Below are positions 4,622 to 52,155 of a stretch of 58,722 nucleotides of DNA, in pieces. The notes under the pieces were generated by a model. The model worked only from the letters and a program-made list of their open reading frames with translations, was not told the DNA's origin and did not search any database. Every line of letters starts with the position of its first letter. The first letter of the stretch is position 1. The translations under genes and the position numbers were made by a program. Source of the stretch: Candidatus Omnitrophota bacterium. GTDB lineage: Bacteria; Omnitrophota; Gorgyraeia; Gorgyraeales; Gorgyraeaceae. The DNA lies in the NCBI GenBank assembly GCA_003485765.1, contig DNHS01000011.1, positions 94,277 to 152,998 on the forward strand, given 5' to 3'.

Positions 4622-5577
4622 AAATTCTTGTAACTGGCGGATGCGGGTTTATAGGTTCTAATTTTATAAGGTACATGCTTAAAAAATACCCTGCCTATAA
4701 AATTGTAAACTTGGATAAGCTTACATACTGCGGAAATCCCGACAACCTTAGAGATATTGAAAAAGATTTGCGTTACGCTTTTATAAAAGGCGATATCTGC
4801 GATAAGAAAGCTGTGGAAAGTGCTATAAAATCCTGCGATGTAGTTATTAATTTCGCGGCTGAAAGTCACGTGGACCGTTCCATAGAAGACGCATCAGCTT
4901 TTATCCGTACAAATATCCACGGCGTCTATACGCTTTTAGAGGCATCTAAAAAACATAAAATTAAGAGATTTATTCAGATCTCAACTGACGAAACTTACGG
5001 CAGTATCAGAAAAGGTTCTTTTAAAGAAACCAGTTTTCTTCATCCCAATAGCCCATATTCAGCGGCAAAGGCAGGCGGGGATCATCTGGCGTTGGCGTAT
5101 TATACGACATTTAAACTTCCCGTTATCGTAACCCGCTCGAGTAATAACTTTGGGCCATACCAGTATCCTGAAAAGGTTGTGCCGCTTTTTATCACGAACC
5201 TTTTGGAAAATAAAAAAGTTCCACTTTATGGCGATGGACTTAATGTCCGCGACTGGCTATATGTCATTGATAATTGCAGCGCTATAGACCTGGTCCTGCA
5301 TAAAGGCAAAATCGGAGAGATATATAATATAGGCGGCAGTTTTGAAATCCCAAATATAGAGCTTACAAAGATTATATTGAAACTTATAGGCAAAACCGAT
5401 AAAATGATTTCTCATGTGCCTGACAGGCTGGGCCATGACAGGCGCTATTCCTTAGATTCAGCAAAGATTAAAAAATTAGGCTGGCAGCCGTCCAAAAACT
5501 TTAACACAGCTATAAAAGAAACAATAAACTGGTATAAAGCCAATACTACCTGGTGGCAAAAACTTAAAACAACTTGA
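4618..5577 (+). CDS. rmlB: dTDP-glucose 4,6-dehydratase
   Basis: TGGCGFIGSNF, AAESHVDRS, STDETYG, YSAAK, NNFGPYQYPEK, GHDRRY. Confidence 0.93.
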   Translation: MKILVTGGCGFIGSNFIRYMLKKYPAYKIVNLDKLTYCGNPDNLRDIEKDLRYAFIKGDICDKKAVESAIKSCDVVINFAAESHVDRSIEDASAFIRTNIHGVYTLLEASKKHKIKRFIQISTDETYGSIRKGSFKETSFLHPNSPYSAAKAGGDHLALAYYTTFKLPVIVTRSSNNFGPYQYPEKVVPLFITNLLENKKVPLYGDGLNVRDWLYVIDNCSAIDLVLHKGKIGEIYNIGGSFEIPNIELTKIILKLIGKTDKMISHVPDRLGHDRRYSLDSAKIKKLGWQPSKNFNTAIKETINWYKANTTWWQKLKTT

Positions 5578-5609
5578 CACTTCAACAATGTTGAAATGTC
5601 AAGTTGTTT
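5567..5609. repeat. Family-A 43-bp palindrome, copy 1 (subtype G)
   Basis: AAACAACTTGACACTTCAACA-A-TGTTGAAATGTCAAGTTGTTT: 21-bp arms with 1 mismatch; contains the rmlB stop codon. Confidence 0.9.
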
Positions 5610-5623
5610 GGGATTAAGACGAA

Positions 5624-6931
5624 ATGTTTAATGAATTAAAGGCGAAAATTGAGAGTAAAAAGGCGAATATCGGGATAATCGGACAGGGGTATGTTGGGCT
5701 TCCCCTGGCAGTGGAGTTCGCTAAGGCCGGCTTTAGCGTCACAGGTTTTGACACCGACGATAAAAAGGTCTCGAGCATCAATAAAGGTATTTCTTATATC
5801 CTGGATGTGCCTTCCGTAGATGTAAAAGAGCTTGTAGCTTCCTGTAAATTAAAAGCCACCACTAATACCAGGCTCTTGAGTAAAATGGACGTCATTATTA
5901 TCTGTGTTCCCACGCCGCTGCGTAAGACAAAAGAGCCGGATATTTCCTATATACTTGCGGCAAGCGAGGCAATAGCTGAGAATAAAAGAAGAGGCCAGCT
6001 TATTATTTTAGAGAGCACCACTTACCCGGGCACAACAGAAGAAGTCATAATGCCAAAATTAGACGGGAACGGCCTAAAGATCGGCAAAGACTTTTTCCTC
6101 GCATTTTCTCCTGAGAGAGTGGATCCAGGTAACCCGAAATATAAAACAAAAGATATTACTAAAATCGTCGGAGGGGTAACTCCTGAATGCACAGAGCTCG
6201 CCAGGCTTTTATATTCCCAGGCAATAAAAGATGTCGTCTCTGTTTCTTCTACACGTTCCGCGGAAATGGTAAAACTCCTTGAAAATACCTTTCGCAGCGT
6301 CAATATCGCCATGGTCAATGAACTTGCTCTCATGTGCCATAAAATGAACCTTGATGTCTGGGAGATCATTAATGCTGCCAAGACAAAACCTTTCGGCTTT
6401 ATGCCATTTTATCCAGGACCCGGCATAGGCGGGCACTGCATTCCTCTCGATCCGTTATATTTGTCATGGAAGGCGCGGCAACATGGGTTTGAAGCGAGGT
6501 TTATTGAGCTTGCGGACGAGATAAACTCCTTTATGCCGCATTATGTAGTTGATAAGATAACCAACATATTAAACGAGAAGAAAAAGCCCCTAAAAGGATC
6601 GAATATTCTAATAATGGGCATAACGTATAAAAAAGACATAAATGATATCAGAGAATCGCCTGCGCTTGAAATAGTAGATTCCCTTATTAAAAAAGACGCG
6701 CATGTTCATTGCCATGACCCGCTTGTATCCGTGTTTGAACTGGATGGCTGCAAGAAAATCACCACAGTTAAGCTTACTAAAGATATTATTTCTTCAAGCG
6801 ACCTTGTGGTCATTATTACAGACCATACTGATATAAATTATAAGTTTGTCGTAGATAACGCAAAACTGATTTTTGACACGCGCAATGCGTTGAAAGAATT
6901 TAAAGACGCAAAAAATATAATAAAGCTATAG
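5624..6931 (+). CDS. UDP-N-acetylhexosamine 6-dehydrogenase (WbpA/WbpO/TviB family)
   Basis: GQGYVGLPLA, ESTTYPGTTEE, FSPERVDPGN, GGHCIPLDP, YKKDINDIRESP. Confidence 0.88.
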   Translation: MFNELKAKIESKKANIGIIGQGYVGLPLAVEFAKAGFSVTGFDTDDKKVSSINKGISYILDVPSVDVKELVASCKLKATTNTRLLSKMDVIIICVPTPLRKTKEPDISYILAASEAIAENKRRGQLIILESTTYPGTTEEVIMPKLDGNGLKIGKDFFLAFSPERVDPGNPKYKTKDITKIVGGVTPECTELARLLYSQAIKDVVSVSSTRSAEMVKLLENTFRSVNIAMVNELALMCHKMNLDVWEIINAAKTKPFGFMPFYPGPGIGGHCIPLDPLYLSWKARQHGFEARFIELADEINSFMPHYVVDKITNILNEKKKPLKGSNILIMGITYKKDINDIRESPALEIVDSLIKKDAHVHCHDPLVSVFELDGCKKITTVKLTKDIISSSDLVVIITDHTDINYKFVVDNAKLIFDTRNALKEFKDAKNIIKL

Positions 6932-6941
6932 AAAGGATATT

Positions 6942-50367: not shown

Positions 50368-50952
50368 ATGTTAATACCCATGGTAATCGAACAATCAGAC
50401 AGAGGCGAAAGGGCATATGATATTTATTCAAGGCTTCTGAAAGACAGGATTATTTTTATTGGTTCGACAATAGATGATATAGTCGCGAATGTAGTCATAG
50501 CTCAGATGCTTTTTCTTCAGATGGAAGACCGCGAAAGAGATATAAATATTTATATCAATAGCCCTGGGGGCGTGGTTACAGCAGGTATGGCTATATATGA
50601 CACAATGCAGTTTATAAAACCTGCTGTGTGCACTTACTGCGTAGGACAGGCAGCCAGCATGGGAGCGGTCCTGCTAGCAGCGGGCGCAAAAGGGAAAAGA
50701 TATGCGCTTCCGAATGCAAGGGTCATGATACACCAGCCATGGGGAGGGGTGCAGGGCCAGGCATCAGATATTAATATACAGGCAAAAGAGATATTAAAGA
50801 TGAGAGATAAGATTAATGAGATACTGGCAAAACATACAGGAAAGCCGCTTGATAAAATAGAGAAAGATACTGACAGAGATTATTTTATGTCCAGCCAGGA
50901 AGCTTTGGAATATGGGATTATAGACGAGATATTTACAGGAAACAAAAAATAG
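50368..50952 (+). CDS. clpP: ATP-dependent Clp protease proteolytic subunit
   Basis: [37 protein letters not shown]. Confidence 0.98.
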
Positions 50953-50975
50953 TTTAAAAGTTAGAGAGGGGAAGT

Positions 50976-52109
50976 ATGATCAAAAATTATCTATTGACGC
51001 CAGGGCCTACACCAATACCACCGAGAGTCCTAGAGACAATGGCAAGGCCGATTATTCATCACAGGACTCCTGAGTTCCAGAAAATTATTCAAGAGGTGGA
51101 AGAAGATTTAAAGTATGTGTATCAAACTAAGAATGAAGTTCTTATATTCGCAGCCTCCGGAACAGGCGCAATGGAAGGAGCTATTTCTAATCTTCTTTCT
51201 CCCGGGGACAAAGCCCTTGTAGTGCGCGGCGGAAAATTCGGAGAGAGATTTGGAGAGATCTGCAAGGCGTATGGCATTGAATTTGCCGCAATAGATGTGG
51301 AGTGGGGAAAGGCAGTAGATCCTAAAAAGATAGATGATGTCTTGAAAAAAGATAAATTGATAAAGGCAGTGTATACGACATTGTGCGAGACATCTACCGG
51401 AGTTGCCACAGATATAGAGGCAGTCGGAAAAGTTTTGAAAAATTATGAAGCTGCGCTTGTAGTGGATGCGATAAGCGGCCTGGCAGCCACTCCTATTAAG
51501 ACAGATGAATGGGGAGTAGATGTCTGTGTATCAGGGTCTCAAAAAGGCCTGATGATCCCTCCTGGACTTGCATTTGTAAGCGTGAGCCATAAGGCATGGG
51601 CATTGATTGAAAAATCAACCCTGCCAAAATATTATTTTGATTTCAAGGCATATAAGAAGGCGCTTGGCAAACAAGATACGCCTTTTACGCCTGCTGTGAA
51701 TCTCGTGATTGCGCTCAGAGAGGCATTAAAAATAATAAAAGAAGAAGGCCTGGATGTTATATTCGATAGGCATAAAAAGATGGCTTTTTCAGTGCGCAGC
51801 GCTGTTAAGGCGATGGGATTGGAATTATTTAGCCCAGACGCTTATTCAGACGGAGTAACTGCTGTAAAAGTCCCTCAGGGTATAGACGGAGAAAAACTTG
51901 TTAAGACAATGAGAGATAAATATGGCGTTGGCATAGCAGGAGGCCAGGACGAGATGAAAGGCAAGATCTTCAGGATAGCCACAATGGGCTATATAACCCC
52001 ATCAGATCTTATCGTATGTTTGGCTACTCTTGAGACCGCGCTTTCAGAGATGGGATATAAATTCCAGCTAGGTTCAGGCGTAAGAGCGCTTGAAGAAACG
52101 CTTAAATAA
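50976..52109 (+). CDS. Class V PLP aminotransferase (alanine-glyoxylate / SerC-substitute type)
   Basis: LLTPGPTP, HHR, SGTGAME, ETSTG, VDAIS, GSQKG, GGQ..FRIATMG. Confidence 0.9.
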   Translation: MIKNYLLTPGPTPIPPRVLETMARPIIHHRTPEFQKIIQEVEEDLKYVYQTKNEVLIFAASGTGAMEGAISNLLSPGDKALVVRGGKFGERFGEICKAYGIEFAAIDVEWGKAVDPKKIDDVLKKDKLIKAVYTTLCETSTGVATDIEAVGKVLKNYEAALVVDAISGLAATPIKTDEWGVDVCVSGSQKGLMIPPGLAFVSVSHKAWALIEKSTLPKYYFDFKAYKKALGKQDTPFTPAVNLVIALREALKIIKEEGLDVIFDRHKKMAFSVRSAVKAMGLELFSPDAYSDGVTAVKVPQGIDGEKLVKTMRDKYGVGIAGGQDEMKGKIFRIATMGYITPSDLIVCLATLETALSEMGYKFQLGSGVRALEETLK

Positions 52110-52112
52110 TCG

Positions 52113-52155
52113 CAACAACTTGACATTTCAACATTGTTGAAATGTCAAGTTGTTT
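52113..52155. repeat. Family-A 43-bp palindrome, copy 5 (subtype G; perfect 20-bp arms)
   Basis: AACAACTTGACATTTCAACA-T-TGTTGAAATGTCAAGTTGTT at 52114-52154. Confidence 0.92.

What the first reader, a model, noticed from the sequence alone, without database searches (positions are those of the whole stretch)
5567..52155. Dispersed 43-bp palindrome family with two covarying subtypes, always just upstream of an internal operon gene
Seen: five copies at 5567, 26264, 30472, 41891 and 52113, consensus AACAACTT(G/T)ACA-N8-(A/T)-N8-TGT(C/A)AAGTTGTT. Subtype G has outer TTGACA/TGTCAA and inner CAACA/TGTTG; subtype T has outer TTTACA/TGTAAA and inner GACA/TGTC. Changes occur on both arms, so pairing is preserved. 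Each ends 8-21 nt before a start codon, and no target duplication is visible. The downstream genes are unrelated in function (sugar dehydrogenase, heptose kinase, kdsD, minor pilin, serA). Inference: an AT-rich REP-like element, or an mRNA hairpin tuning processing/translation within polycistrons, rather than a regulon operator. I do not recognise this family.
Basis: partly seen in the sequence, partly recalled or inferred. Interest (0 to 1): 0.75.

Follow-up and report, generated by a model that had tools for sequence, protein, structure and literature searches.

The report
REP-like palindromes with cognate RAYT transposase
The five palindromes are copies of a high-copy, insertion-polymorphic repeat of uncultured Omnitrophota bacteria whose partner is a conserved single-strand-DNA (RAYT-type) transposase gene flanked by the same repeat, so they are selfish or domesticated DNA of a known kind in a new form, not a regulator of the genes they precede.

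Summary
There are five copies with perfect 12-nt arms (AACAACTTKACA, 17-nt spacer), against 0.42 arm hits expected by chance.

The family is not private to this window. Four Candidatus Omnitrophota MAGs carry it, and one has at least 70 copies in the pieces I could fetch.

"Always upstream of an internal operon gene" reflects genome architecture. 92% of gene junctions in these genomes are co-directional, and occupancy does not differ by junction type. Junctions with a copy have a 57-nt median gap; those without have 20 nt.

The upstream stop codon lies inside or against the element in 30 of 52 clear cases. The start codon follows about 15 nt later.

The G/T "covariation" is local to this window. 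In the largest sample, the two halves of an element match no better than random pairs of halves.

At orthologous junctions in relatives the element is present, absent, or replaced by an unrelated hairpin.

The decisive result is a conserved ~294-aa HUH/Y1 transposase with a C-terminal HTH. Its best fold match is E. coli TnpA_REP (4ER8). It is flanked on both sides by this palindrome, or by a lineage-specific variant, in all nine lineages examined.

Verdict: a REP/RAYT-type system in a new, GTAG-less, symmetric form.

The parts
5568..5608 (.). Copy 1, G/G subtype, between a GDP-mannose-dehydratase-like epimerase gene and a UDP-glucose/GDP-mannose dehydrogenase gene. The upstream gene ends with the TGA of the element's own TTGACA (5575-5577). 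ATG at 5624.
   Evidence: The orthologous copy in MAG MNVP01 (L084 3846-3886) has identical arms and 4 inner differences.
26265..26305 (.). Copy 2, T/T subtype, before a PfkB-family sugar kinase gene. Upstream stop is 16 nt before the element. ATG at 26317.
   Evidence: The syntenic relative L098 has no spacer at all here: the two genes overlap as ATGA. Many metagenome contigs carry the element with other flanks.
30473..30513 (.). Copy 3, G/G subtype, between kdsA (KDO8P synthase family) and kdsD (SIS+CBS). kdsA ends with the element's TGA (30480-30482), giving ...IVKTT* where L098 has ...IVK*. ATG at 30536.
   Evidence: L098 has unrelated GC-rich hairpins at this junction. L097 has a diverged copy of the family.
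41892..41932 (.). Copy 4, T/T subtype, between two pseudopilin genes (N_methyl, GspH-like). The upstream TAA (41890-41892) overlaps the first base of the element. ATG at 41942.
52114..52154 (.). Copy 5, G/G subtype, between a class-V aminotransferase gene (serC-like) and serA. Upstream TAA ends 4 nt before the element. ATG at 52172.

Best explanation
The five palindromes belong to a REP-type (repetitive extragenic palindrome) family of Candidatus Omnitrophota.

The unit is an inverted pair of half-sites, AACAACTTKACA-N5/6-RACA, around a single central A or T. It is 41 or 43 nt long.

Its partner is a conserved, syntenic, apparently single-copy HUH/Y1 tyrosine transposase of the RAYT kind. This protein has an extra C-terminal helix-turn-helix, and its gene is itself bracketed by copies of the element.

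Inferred mechanism:
- The enzyme recognises the invariant arms and the central ACAWTGT. This could be as a hairpin extruded from single-stranded DNA, as in E. coli TnpA_REP, and/or as duplex DNA through the HTH.
- It then cuts and rejoins DNA, so copies are seeded into new sites without target duplication.
- In these tightly packed, almost entirely co-directional genomes, the only tolerated sites are the 15-20 nt between a stop codon and the next ribosome-binding site. Copies therefore end up exactly there.
- They often overwrite the stop codon and supply a new one (TAA at the foot, or TGA inside TTGACA).

Any effect on the flanking genes would be a by-product. Possible effects are ribosome stalling at a hairpin next to the stop codon, or changed mRNA stability.

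Shown here: family membership, copy number in relatives, insertion polymorphism, association with the transposase across lineages, and intact catalytic motifs.

Inferred, not shown: enzymatic activity on the element, the single-strand hairpin intermediate, and ongoing mobility.
For: 1. Copy number and host range. 67 of these came from four Omnitrophota MAGs. 103 copies have at most 4 arm mismatches and 89 have perfect arms. Arms almost never occur alone: 178 of 194 exact arms sit in full perfect-arm elements.

2. Insertion polymorphism at orthologous junctions:
- window 17275/17299 is empty, but JAUYDX is filled;
- window 21312/21363 holds a different 35-bp hairpin, JAHJQM and JAUYDX hold this element, and L098 has a 7-nt spacer;
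- copy 2 corresponds to overlapping genes in L098;
- copy 3 is replaced by other hairpins in L098.

3. Gap sizes. The median intergenic gap is 57 nt with the element and 20 nt without. Occupancy is 17% at tandem, 11% at convergent and 22% at divergent junctions, not significantly different. The centre base is unbiased relative to gene direction.

4. Neighbouring genes are unrelated housekeeping genes.

5. The transposase gene is bracketed by the element in L057, L181 and L185/L186, and by lineage-specific palindromes at the same positions in L177-180, L183, L187, L188 and L189.

6. The protein:
- Pfam Y1_Tnp, E 3.8e-8.
- Best NCBIfam hit is REP_Tyr_transpos, 54-63 bits over the whole profile.
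- H76, H78, Y135 and N139 are invariant in 53 homologues.
- The AlphaFold model (pLDDT 79.8) matches 4ER8_A best, with TM 0.71 and rmsd 2.1 A, against about 5 A for IS200/IS608 transposases.

7. There is no target duplication, as expected for Y1 transposition (established knowledge of IS200/IS605).
Against: - The window's own genome could not be searched. Its copy number and the presence of the transposase gene there are therefore unknown. The closest evidence is L185, which carries the same 41-nt subtype.
- The canonical GT[AG]G tetranucleotide at the foot of the stem is absent.
- The protein scores below NCBIfam's equivalog cutoff (80 bits).
- Quentin et al. 2018 (PMC6006769) found no REPs near HTH-bearing subclass 2.1 genes.
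- Nearly all copies have perfect arms and few are decayed. This fits purifying selection for a host function as well as it fits recent or continuing amplification.
- Adjacency to the gene could reflect autoregulation by the HTH rather than mobilisation.
- No activity was tested.
Confidence: 0.8

Rival explanations
1. The elements exist because they act in RNA. On this view they are an intercistronic hairpin that sets processing, stability or translational coupling inside polycistronic mRNAs. The RAYT association would be secondary.
For: - Each copy forms a stable 19-bp hairpin.
- 50 of 52 clear cases lie within 15 nt of the upstream stop, and the start codon follows about 15 nt later.
- In E. 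coli, REPs within 15 nt of a stop codon stall ribosomes and lower expression (Liang et al. 2015, as cited in PMC12306157).
- Two junctions carry some hairpin in several lineages.
Against: - The element is absent at orthologous junctions in close relatives, where the genes simply abut or overlap.
- There is no polarity relative to transcription.
- The halves do not covary: mismatches average 2.61 per element against 2.27 for random pairs, and G.A/U.C combinations are common.
- Copies also occur at convergent and divergent junctions.
- Metatranscriptome data were too thin to show RNA ends.
Confidence: 0.08
2. The elements are duplex-DNA binding sites of a global DNA-binding protein and are not mobile. 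The protein could be the HTH domain of the RAYT-like protein, the neighbouring XRE regulator, or a nucleoid protein. The function would be chromosome organisation or global repression.
For: - The half-sites vary independently, and G or T is tolerated at one position. This is how protein-read half-sites behave.
- The arms are invariant across genomes whose genes are only ~75% identical.
- Arms change on both sides together between lineages of the protein.
- One copy sits between a conserved promoter-like box and the RBS of the transposase gene in every hom-thrC-linked lineage checked.
Against: - The element is present, absent or swapped at orthologous junctions.
- The gap-size difference equals the element length.
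- Stop codons are overwritten by the element.
- The partner protein keeps an intact HUH/Y catalytic set, which a pure DNA-binding role would not need.
Confidence: 0.08
3. The elements are internal promoters. TTGACA/TTTACA would be a -35 box, allowing transcription in either direction.
For: Each arm contains a perfect or near-perfect -35 hexamer. The distance from the element to the start codon would suit a short leader.
Against: - No acceptable -10 lies 16-18 nt downstream, and the consensus scan flags neither copy in the 5.2-kb stretch scanned, which holds copies 2 and 3.
- The spacer changes from 17 to 19 nt between subtypes.
- The stop codons of upstream genes lie inside the element.
- Copies are dispensable in relatives.
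Confidence: 0.02

Closest known systems
REP sequences with their RAYT / TnpA_REP transposase (the 'REPtron' of E. coli, Pseudomonas and Stenotrophomonas; Nunvar 2010 PMC2817692; Bertels & Rainey 2011 PMC3116915; structure 4ER8)
   Same: - A short hairpin-forming palindrome in many extragenic copies.
- Sub-families coexist within one genome.
- Copies often lie next to stop codons.
- No target duplication.
- A vertically inherited, syntenic HUH/Y1 transposase gene is bracketed by its own repeat type.
- Repeat sequence and enzyme lineage change together.
   Different: - No GT[AG]G at the foot of the stem.
- The element is a nearly perfect 41-43-nt dyad with a 1-nt centre, not a 20-35-nt imperfect hairpin.
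- It is not arranged as REP doublets (REPIN/BIME).
- It is AT-rich.
- The enzyme is twice as long and has a C-terminal HTH.
- The host is an uncultured phylum for which I found no published REP description.
TnpA_Y1 subclass 2.1 = RAYT group 1 = 'TIRYT' (Quentin et al. 2018, PMC6006769; Bertels et al. 2017; Di Nocera et al. 2013)
   Same: - A long Y1 protein with a C-terminal HTH. Homologues here carry HTH_23/HTH_28-type hits.
- Inverted repeats flank the gene.
   Different: - That subclass was reported to have no REP-like sequences nearby, and flanking repeats of consensus GGGG[AT][CG]A[CG]. Here the flanking repeats are complete palindromes of a different sequence, and they form a dispersed population.
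- Membership in subclass 2.1 itself could not be tested with the authors' profiles.
IS200/IS605 family (IS608, ISDra2) and its hairpin ends
   Same: - The same catalytic fold and motifs.
- Hairpin-recognising single-strand transposition.
- Insertion without duplication, next to a short target.
   Different: - The Omnitrophota gene is not part of a mobile IS. It keeps one chromosomal position (hom-thrC-X-XRE) across lineages.
- Its fold is clearly closer to 4ER8 than to IS608/ISDra2.
- The repeats move without the gene.
Neisseria Correia elements, ERIC/IRU and other MITE-like intergenic repeats
   Same: Small non-coding repeats that land at gene junctions and can alter the ends of neighbouring genes or transcripts.
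   Different: Those are 100-150 bp with terminal inverted repeats and TA or similar duplications. Here the element is 41-43 nt, has no duplication, and has a Y1 partner.

Membership tests
REP / RAYT system | Short palindrome able to form a stable hairpin | tested here: met
   Each copy forms a 19-bp stem with a 3-nt loop, -18 to -27 kcal/mol, z -4.4 to -6.2.
REP / RAYT system | Many dispersed, extragenic copies in one genome | tested here: met
All are intergenic or overlap only a stop codon. The window has 5 copies in 58.7 kb. A whole-genome count for the window's own assembly was not possible.
REP / RAYT system | Cognate RAYT gene flanked by the same repeat type | tested here: met
   This element brackets the gene in L057, L181 and L185/186. 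Lineage-specific variants do so in L177-180, L183, L187, L188 and L189. This was shown in relatives, not in the window's own genome.
REP / RAYT system | RAYT protein: HUH and catalytic Tyr motifs, TnpA_REP-like fold, single conserved locus | tested here: met
   - Motifs HIHLLL and YMHFNPVKA are present, and H76/H78/Y135/N139 are invariant.
- The best fold match is 4ER8_A, TM 0.71.
- The hom-thrC-X-XRE synteny holds in seven lineages.
- The NCBIfam equivalog cutoff is not reached (54-63 against 80 bits).
REP / RAYT system | Conserved GT[AG]G tetranucleotide at the 5' foot of the hairpin | tested here: not met
   The foot is (A/C)AACAAC on both sides, and no copy has GTAG.
REP / RAYT system | Presence/absence polymorphism at orthologous sites | tested here: met
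   Of seven comparable junctions, five are empty or swapped and two are shared.
REPIN (REP doublet forming a hairpin) | [quoted passage not shown] | tested here: not met
   The halves are not themselves palindromes and they abut at a single central base.
TnpA_Y1 subclass 2.1 / TIRYT | C-terminal HTH extension (Bac_DnaA_C, HTH_23 or HTH_28) | tested here: met
   Weak HTH_7/HTH_22/HTH_23 hits at residues 255-293. Homologues have precomputed HTH_23 and HTH_28 hits. The HTH resembles the IS5376 transposase N-terminus.
TnpA_Y1 subclass 2.1 / TIRYT | Placement in the subclass by the authors' profiles or tree, and flanking repeats GGGG[AT][CG]A[CG] | tested here: inconclusive
   The profiles were not available. 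The flanking repeats here have a different sequence.
Transcription-factor operator of a regulon | Few sites, conserved at orthologous positions, functionally coherent target genes | tested here: not met
   There are more than 100 sites. The 94 neighbouring genes fall in 151 Pfam families with no theme. Sites are not conserved.
Sigma-70 promoter or intrinsic terminator | A -10 hexamer 16-18 nt after the -35, or a GC-rich stem followed by a T run | tested here: not met
   Neither scan flags the copies at 26265 or 30473.
Known RNA family | Match to an Rfam covariance model | tested here: not met
   No hit at gathering threshold in the whole window.

The most novel reading that the evidence does not exclude
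The HTH-tailed branch of RAYT-like transposases has been reported to lack REPs. It may in fact maintain a phylum-wide class of GTAG-less, fully symmetric 35-45-nt palindromes in Omnitrophota.

Three features would depart from classical REPs:
- The two halves of an element are associated at random, or even slightly repulsively. This suggests cutting at the dyad centre and exchange of half-elements between copies.
- Insertion is aimed at, or filtered to, stop codons, so the elements routinely rewrite the last codons and stop codons of housekeeping genes.
- One copy sits between the transposase gene's promoter-like box and its RBS, so the HTH could make the element the enzyme's own operator.
Probability: 0.3. 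Interest if true: 0.6.

Novelty: new variant of a known kind. Interest (0 to 1): 0.45.

Why it matters
REP/RAYT systems are the best-studied case of a vertically inherited repeat population living with a domesticated transposase. They are known almost only from Proteobacteria and have one canonical repeat architecture.

This system extends that picture in three ways:
- It is in an uncultured, ultra-small, tightly packed phylum.
- The enzyme subclass was thought to be repeat-less.
- The repeat is symmetric and lacks the GTAG guide.

It would therefore widen what counts as a REP and give a second, contrasting substrate for biochemical work on HUH enzymes.

There are also practical consequences:
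- The repeats break assemblies of these MAGs.
- They change gene 3' ends.
- They can be mistaken for regulatory motifs.

Tried and rejected
Copy number and the transposase in the window's own assembly could not be checked.
- Rfam gave nothing.
- RNA evidence was thin. One lake metatranscriptome had a few short contigs of a relative over serC/serA and none across the element.
- Laying groundwater DNA contigs on the window showed many contigs carrying the element with other flanks. Assemblies break at the repeat, so no clean empty-site joint was seen in near-identical strains. One weak 128-nt skip at copy 2 in X3 is not reliable.
- The PyrG-based metagenome scan mostly returned non-Omnitrophota. 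Only L097 and L098 were useful.
- Promoter and terminator readings were rejected by the consensus scan.
- I considered DNA-uptake sequences. They were rejected because arms never occur singly.
- I considered CRISPR-like repeats. They were rejected because the copies are dispersed singly at gene junctions rather than in arrays.
- I considered a MITE with duplications. No duplication is present.
- Exact insertion boundaries could not be defined, because the filled and empty pairs are only ~80% identical.

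
Full report
**Observation**

The arm AACAACTTKACA gives 10 hits on both strands, against 0.42 expected. All ten hits belong to the five elements. A looser scan allowing up to 4 arm mismatches finds nothing else in the window.

Each copy folds into a 19-bp hairpin with a 3-nt loop, z -4.4 to -6.2. 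No Rfam family matches.

- epimerase and sugar dehydrogenase;
- an unknown gene and a PfkB kinase;
- kdsA and kdsD;
- two pseudopilins;
- a serC-like gene and serA.

In copies 1 and 3 the upstream gene ends with the TGA inside the element's TTGACA. In copy 4 the TAA overlaps the first base of the element.

**The family outside the window**

Of these, 67 come from four Candidatus Omnitrophota MAGs: JAUYDX01, MNVP01, JAHJQM01 and CAKKRB01. The rest are scattered single chance palindromes in other phyla.

In those loci plus the window there are 103 copies with at most 4 arm mismatches, 89 of them with perfect arms. The half-site is AACAACTTKACA-N5/6-RACA around one central A or T, giving 41-nt and 43-nt forms. 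Exact arms almost never occur alone: 178 of 194 lie in full perfect-arm elements.

Earlier notes of this scan report the same arms 62 kb upstream in this genome. I did not check that.

**Position relative to genes**

With a crude ORF-based gene call, 409 of 446 gene junctions in these loci are co-directional. The element occupies 17% of tandem, 11% of convergent and 22% of divergent junctions, with no significant difference. Its centre base shows no bias relative to gene direction. "Always before an internal operon gene" is therefore the background architecture, not a property of the element.

Occupied junctions have a median gap of 57 nt and unoccupied ones 20 nt. The difference is the element's length.

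In 52 clear tandem cases the upstream stop codon lies inside or against the element in 30 (TAA 20, TGA 10). It lies within 15 nt in another 20. The start codon follows at a median of 15 nt, after a G-rich ribosome-binding site.

The 94 neighbouring genes of 100-420 codons fall in 151 Pfam families with no theme. Examples are tRNA synthetase, acetate kinase, chorismate synthase, FtsW, IspH and PurC.

**Covariation**

In the window, G or T is the same on both arms and is linked to the inner sequence. This does not hold in relatives.

In the 51 perfect-arm 43-nt copies of JAUYDX the arm combinations are GG 25, TT 4, GT 15 and TG 7. The two halves of an element differ at 2.61 positions on average. 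Randomly re-paired halves differ at 2.27, and the observed value exceeds 99.5% of shuffles. Mixed elements give G.A or U.C oppositions, not wobble pairs.

Within genomes, then, the halves behave as independent, protein-readable half-sites, and pairing of the inner part is not selected. The slight excess of mismatch is unexplained. It could reflect avoidance of long perfect palindromes or exchange of halves.

Between lineages, both arms change together, for example AACTTGACA/TGTCAAGTT to AAGTTGACA/TGTCAACTT. This fits a hairpin substrate and a symmetric duplex site equally well.

**Orthologous junctions**

Parts of the window align to loci of relatives at 75-96% identity. The comparisons are as follows.

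| Window junction | Window | Relatives |
|---|---|---|
| Copy 1 (5568) | element | MNVP01 shares it, with identical arms and four inner changes |
| 17275/17299 | no element | JAUYDX has one |
| 21312/21363 | an unrelated 35-bp hairpin directly after the stop codon | JAHJQM and JAUYDX hold this element at the same point; contig L098 has a 7-nt spacer |
| Copy 2 (26265) | element | in L098 the two genes overlap as ATGA |
| Copy 3 (30473) | element | L098 has two unrelated GC-rich hairpins; L097 has a diverged family member |

At copy 3, kdsA ends ...IVKTT* in the window and ...IVK* in L098. The element therefore replaced the original stop codon.

Presence, absence and replacement at the same junctions argue for insertional turnover. 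They argue against a conserved operator or a required RNA signal.

**The partner gene**

A motif search of all ORFs in the Omnitrophota loci found two HUH...Y..NP proteins.

The first, in L057 (CAKKRB), is 294 aa. One element ends 2 nt from its stop codon. Another lies 20 nt upstream of its start. A third lies 68 nt further on.

Its properties:
- It hits Pfam Y1_Tnp (3.8e-8) and has weak C-terminal HTH matches.
- Its best NCBIfam match is REP_Tyr_transpos across the whole profile. The score of 54-63 bits is below the 80-bit equivalog cutoff, and IS200 scores far lower.
- It has 686 homologues at E <= 1e-5 in the protein collection. Those that carry a source name are named Omnitrophota or Omnitrophica, apart from one labelled only "bacterium".
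- In an alignment of 53 homologues (44-73% identity), H76, H78, Y135 and N139 are invariant.
- The AlphaFold model (pLDDT 79.8) matches E. coli TnpA_REP bound to a REP hairpin (4ER8_A) best. The target-normalised TM is 0.71 and rmsd is 2.1 A, against about 5 A for IS200, IS608 and ISDra2.

**The same arrangement in other lineages**

I fetched the context of eight homologues. In seven lineages, counting L057, the gene occupies one locus: hom - thrC - gene - XRE regulator - Tricorn_N protein - giant gene. In every lineage the gene is bracketed by palindromes.

| Locus | Flanking palindrome |
|---|---|
| L181 (JAUYDX) | this family |
| L185/L186 | this family, in the window's 41-nt subtype |
| L177-L180 | ATAAACTTGACA... 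|
| L183 | TAAGTTGACACTCTTACA / TGTTAGTTTGTCAACTTA |
| L187 | AAAGTAGACAAAACAGACA... |
| L188 (inside an ATP-synthase operon) | TAATGAAACAAAATAGGTA... |
| L189 | AATAAGTTGACAGAATCGGTA... |

This is the REPtron pattern: one conserved gene, its own repeat type on both sides, and repeat and enzyme changing together.

The hom-thrC-linked lineages checked also share a further detail. A conserved box, TTGAAAGAAAA-N11/12-ATGTGTC, lies upstream of the gene, with one element between the box and the RBS. This suggests that the HTH may use the element as an operator. That is inference.

The second HUH protein, in L085, is 211 aa, has no HTH, and is bracketed by a different repeat.

**Comparison with the literature**

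REP/RAYT systems are described by Nunvar 2010 (PMC2817692), Bertels and Rainey 2011 (PMC3116915) and others listed. Quentin et al. 2018 (PMC6006769) describe a subclass 2.1, equal to Bertels' group 1 and to "TIRYT". Its members have C-terminal HTH domains. [quoted passage not shown]

The Omnitrophota protein resembles that subclass in architecture. I could not place it with their profiles.

REPs within 15 nt of a stop codon are reported to stall ribosomes in E. coli (Liang et al. 2015, as cited in PMC12306157). That makes a by-product effect on upstream genes plausible here.

I found no paper on palindromic repeats or RAYTs in Omnitrophota. Earlier AI notes of this scan had already proposed REP/RAYT-type readings for other repeats in this and another Omnitrophota genome. 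I treated them as leads and reached the association independently from the sequences.

**Verdict**

The best explanation is a REP-type repeat family maintained by an HTH-tailed RAYT-like transposase (confidence 0.8).

It fails two classical membership features: the GTAG foot and the REP-doublet architecture. The enzyme scores below the curated equivalog threshold. I therefore file it as a new variant of a known kind.

The promoter, terminator, operator-regulon and dedicated-RNA readings are each contradicted by a test.

Main limits:
- no access to the window's own genome;
- crude gene calls;
- a truncated collection scan;
- only ~80% identical filled/empty pairs;
- no functional or RNA data.

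Noticed in passing
window 21314-21357: An unrelated hairpin repeat, AATGTTACAAAAC-(loop)-GTTTTGTAACATT, sits directly after a stop codon. Two relatives carry the 43-nt element at this same junction and a third has only a 7-nt spacer. It probably belongs to the 35-bp REP-type family noted earlier in this genome (note e1-1101062).
   Followed up: partly
L084 4716-6167 (MNVP01000011), corresponds to window 6437/6438: The UDP-glucose/GDP-mannose dehydrogenase gene of the relative carries an in-frame insertion of ~1450 bp (919 aa against 435 aa). It ends ...SHN|C and looks like an intein. The window's gene lacks it.
   Followed up: partly
L026 3944-4254 (JAHJQM010000055), corresponds to window 23347/23348: A ~310-bp insertion with ~25-nt terminal inverted repeats (TTTCTGTCCAGGCTAGCAGTTTT...). 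It is MITE-like and absent from the window.
   Followed up: no
L085 2700-3535 (JAUYDX010000088): A second, shorter RAYT-like gene (211 aa, no HTH; REP_Tyr_transpos 62 bits). It is bracketed by a different repeat, CAACCTRCGAGGTAACCTGCGAGGTTG. This genome therefore has at least two enzyme/repeat pairs.
   Followed up: partly
L057 3145-3200; L177 2780; L181 572; L183 2396; L185 2481; L187 1402; also L011 1948 and L042 5691: A conserved box, TTGAAAGAAAA-N11/12-ATGTGTC(T/A)-TATAT, lies upstream of the RAYT-like gene in every hom-thrC-linked lineage checked, with one palindrome between it and the RBS. The same box precedes two other genes.
   Followed up: partly
L098 10107-10215: At the kdsA-kdsD junction of this relative there are two other hairpins: GGGGAGGGTTTAAAACCCTCCCC and a ~60-nt one built on TTCCGTTCGC...GCGAACGGGA. 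The same junction therefore attracts different palindromes in different lineages.
   Followed up: no
JAUYDX loci, 51 copies of the 43-nt form: The two halves of an element are more different from each other than random pairs of halves (2.61 against 2.27 mismatches, beyond 99.5% of shuffles). This is unexplained. It could reflect avoidance of perfect palindromes or exchange of half-elements.
   Followed up: partly
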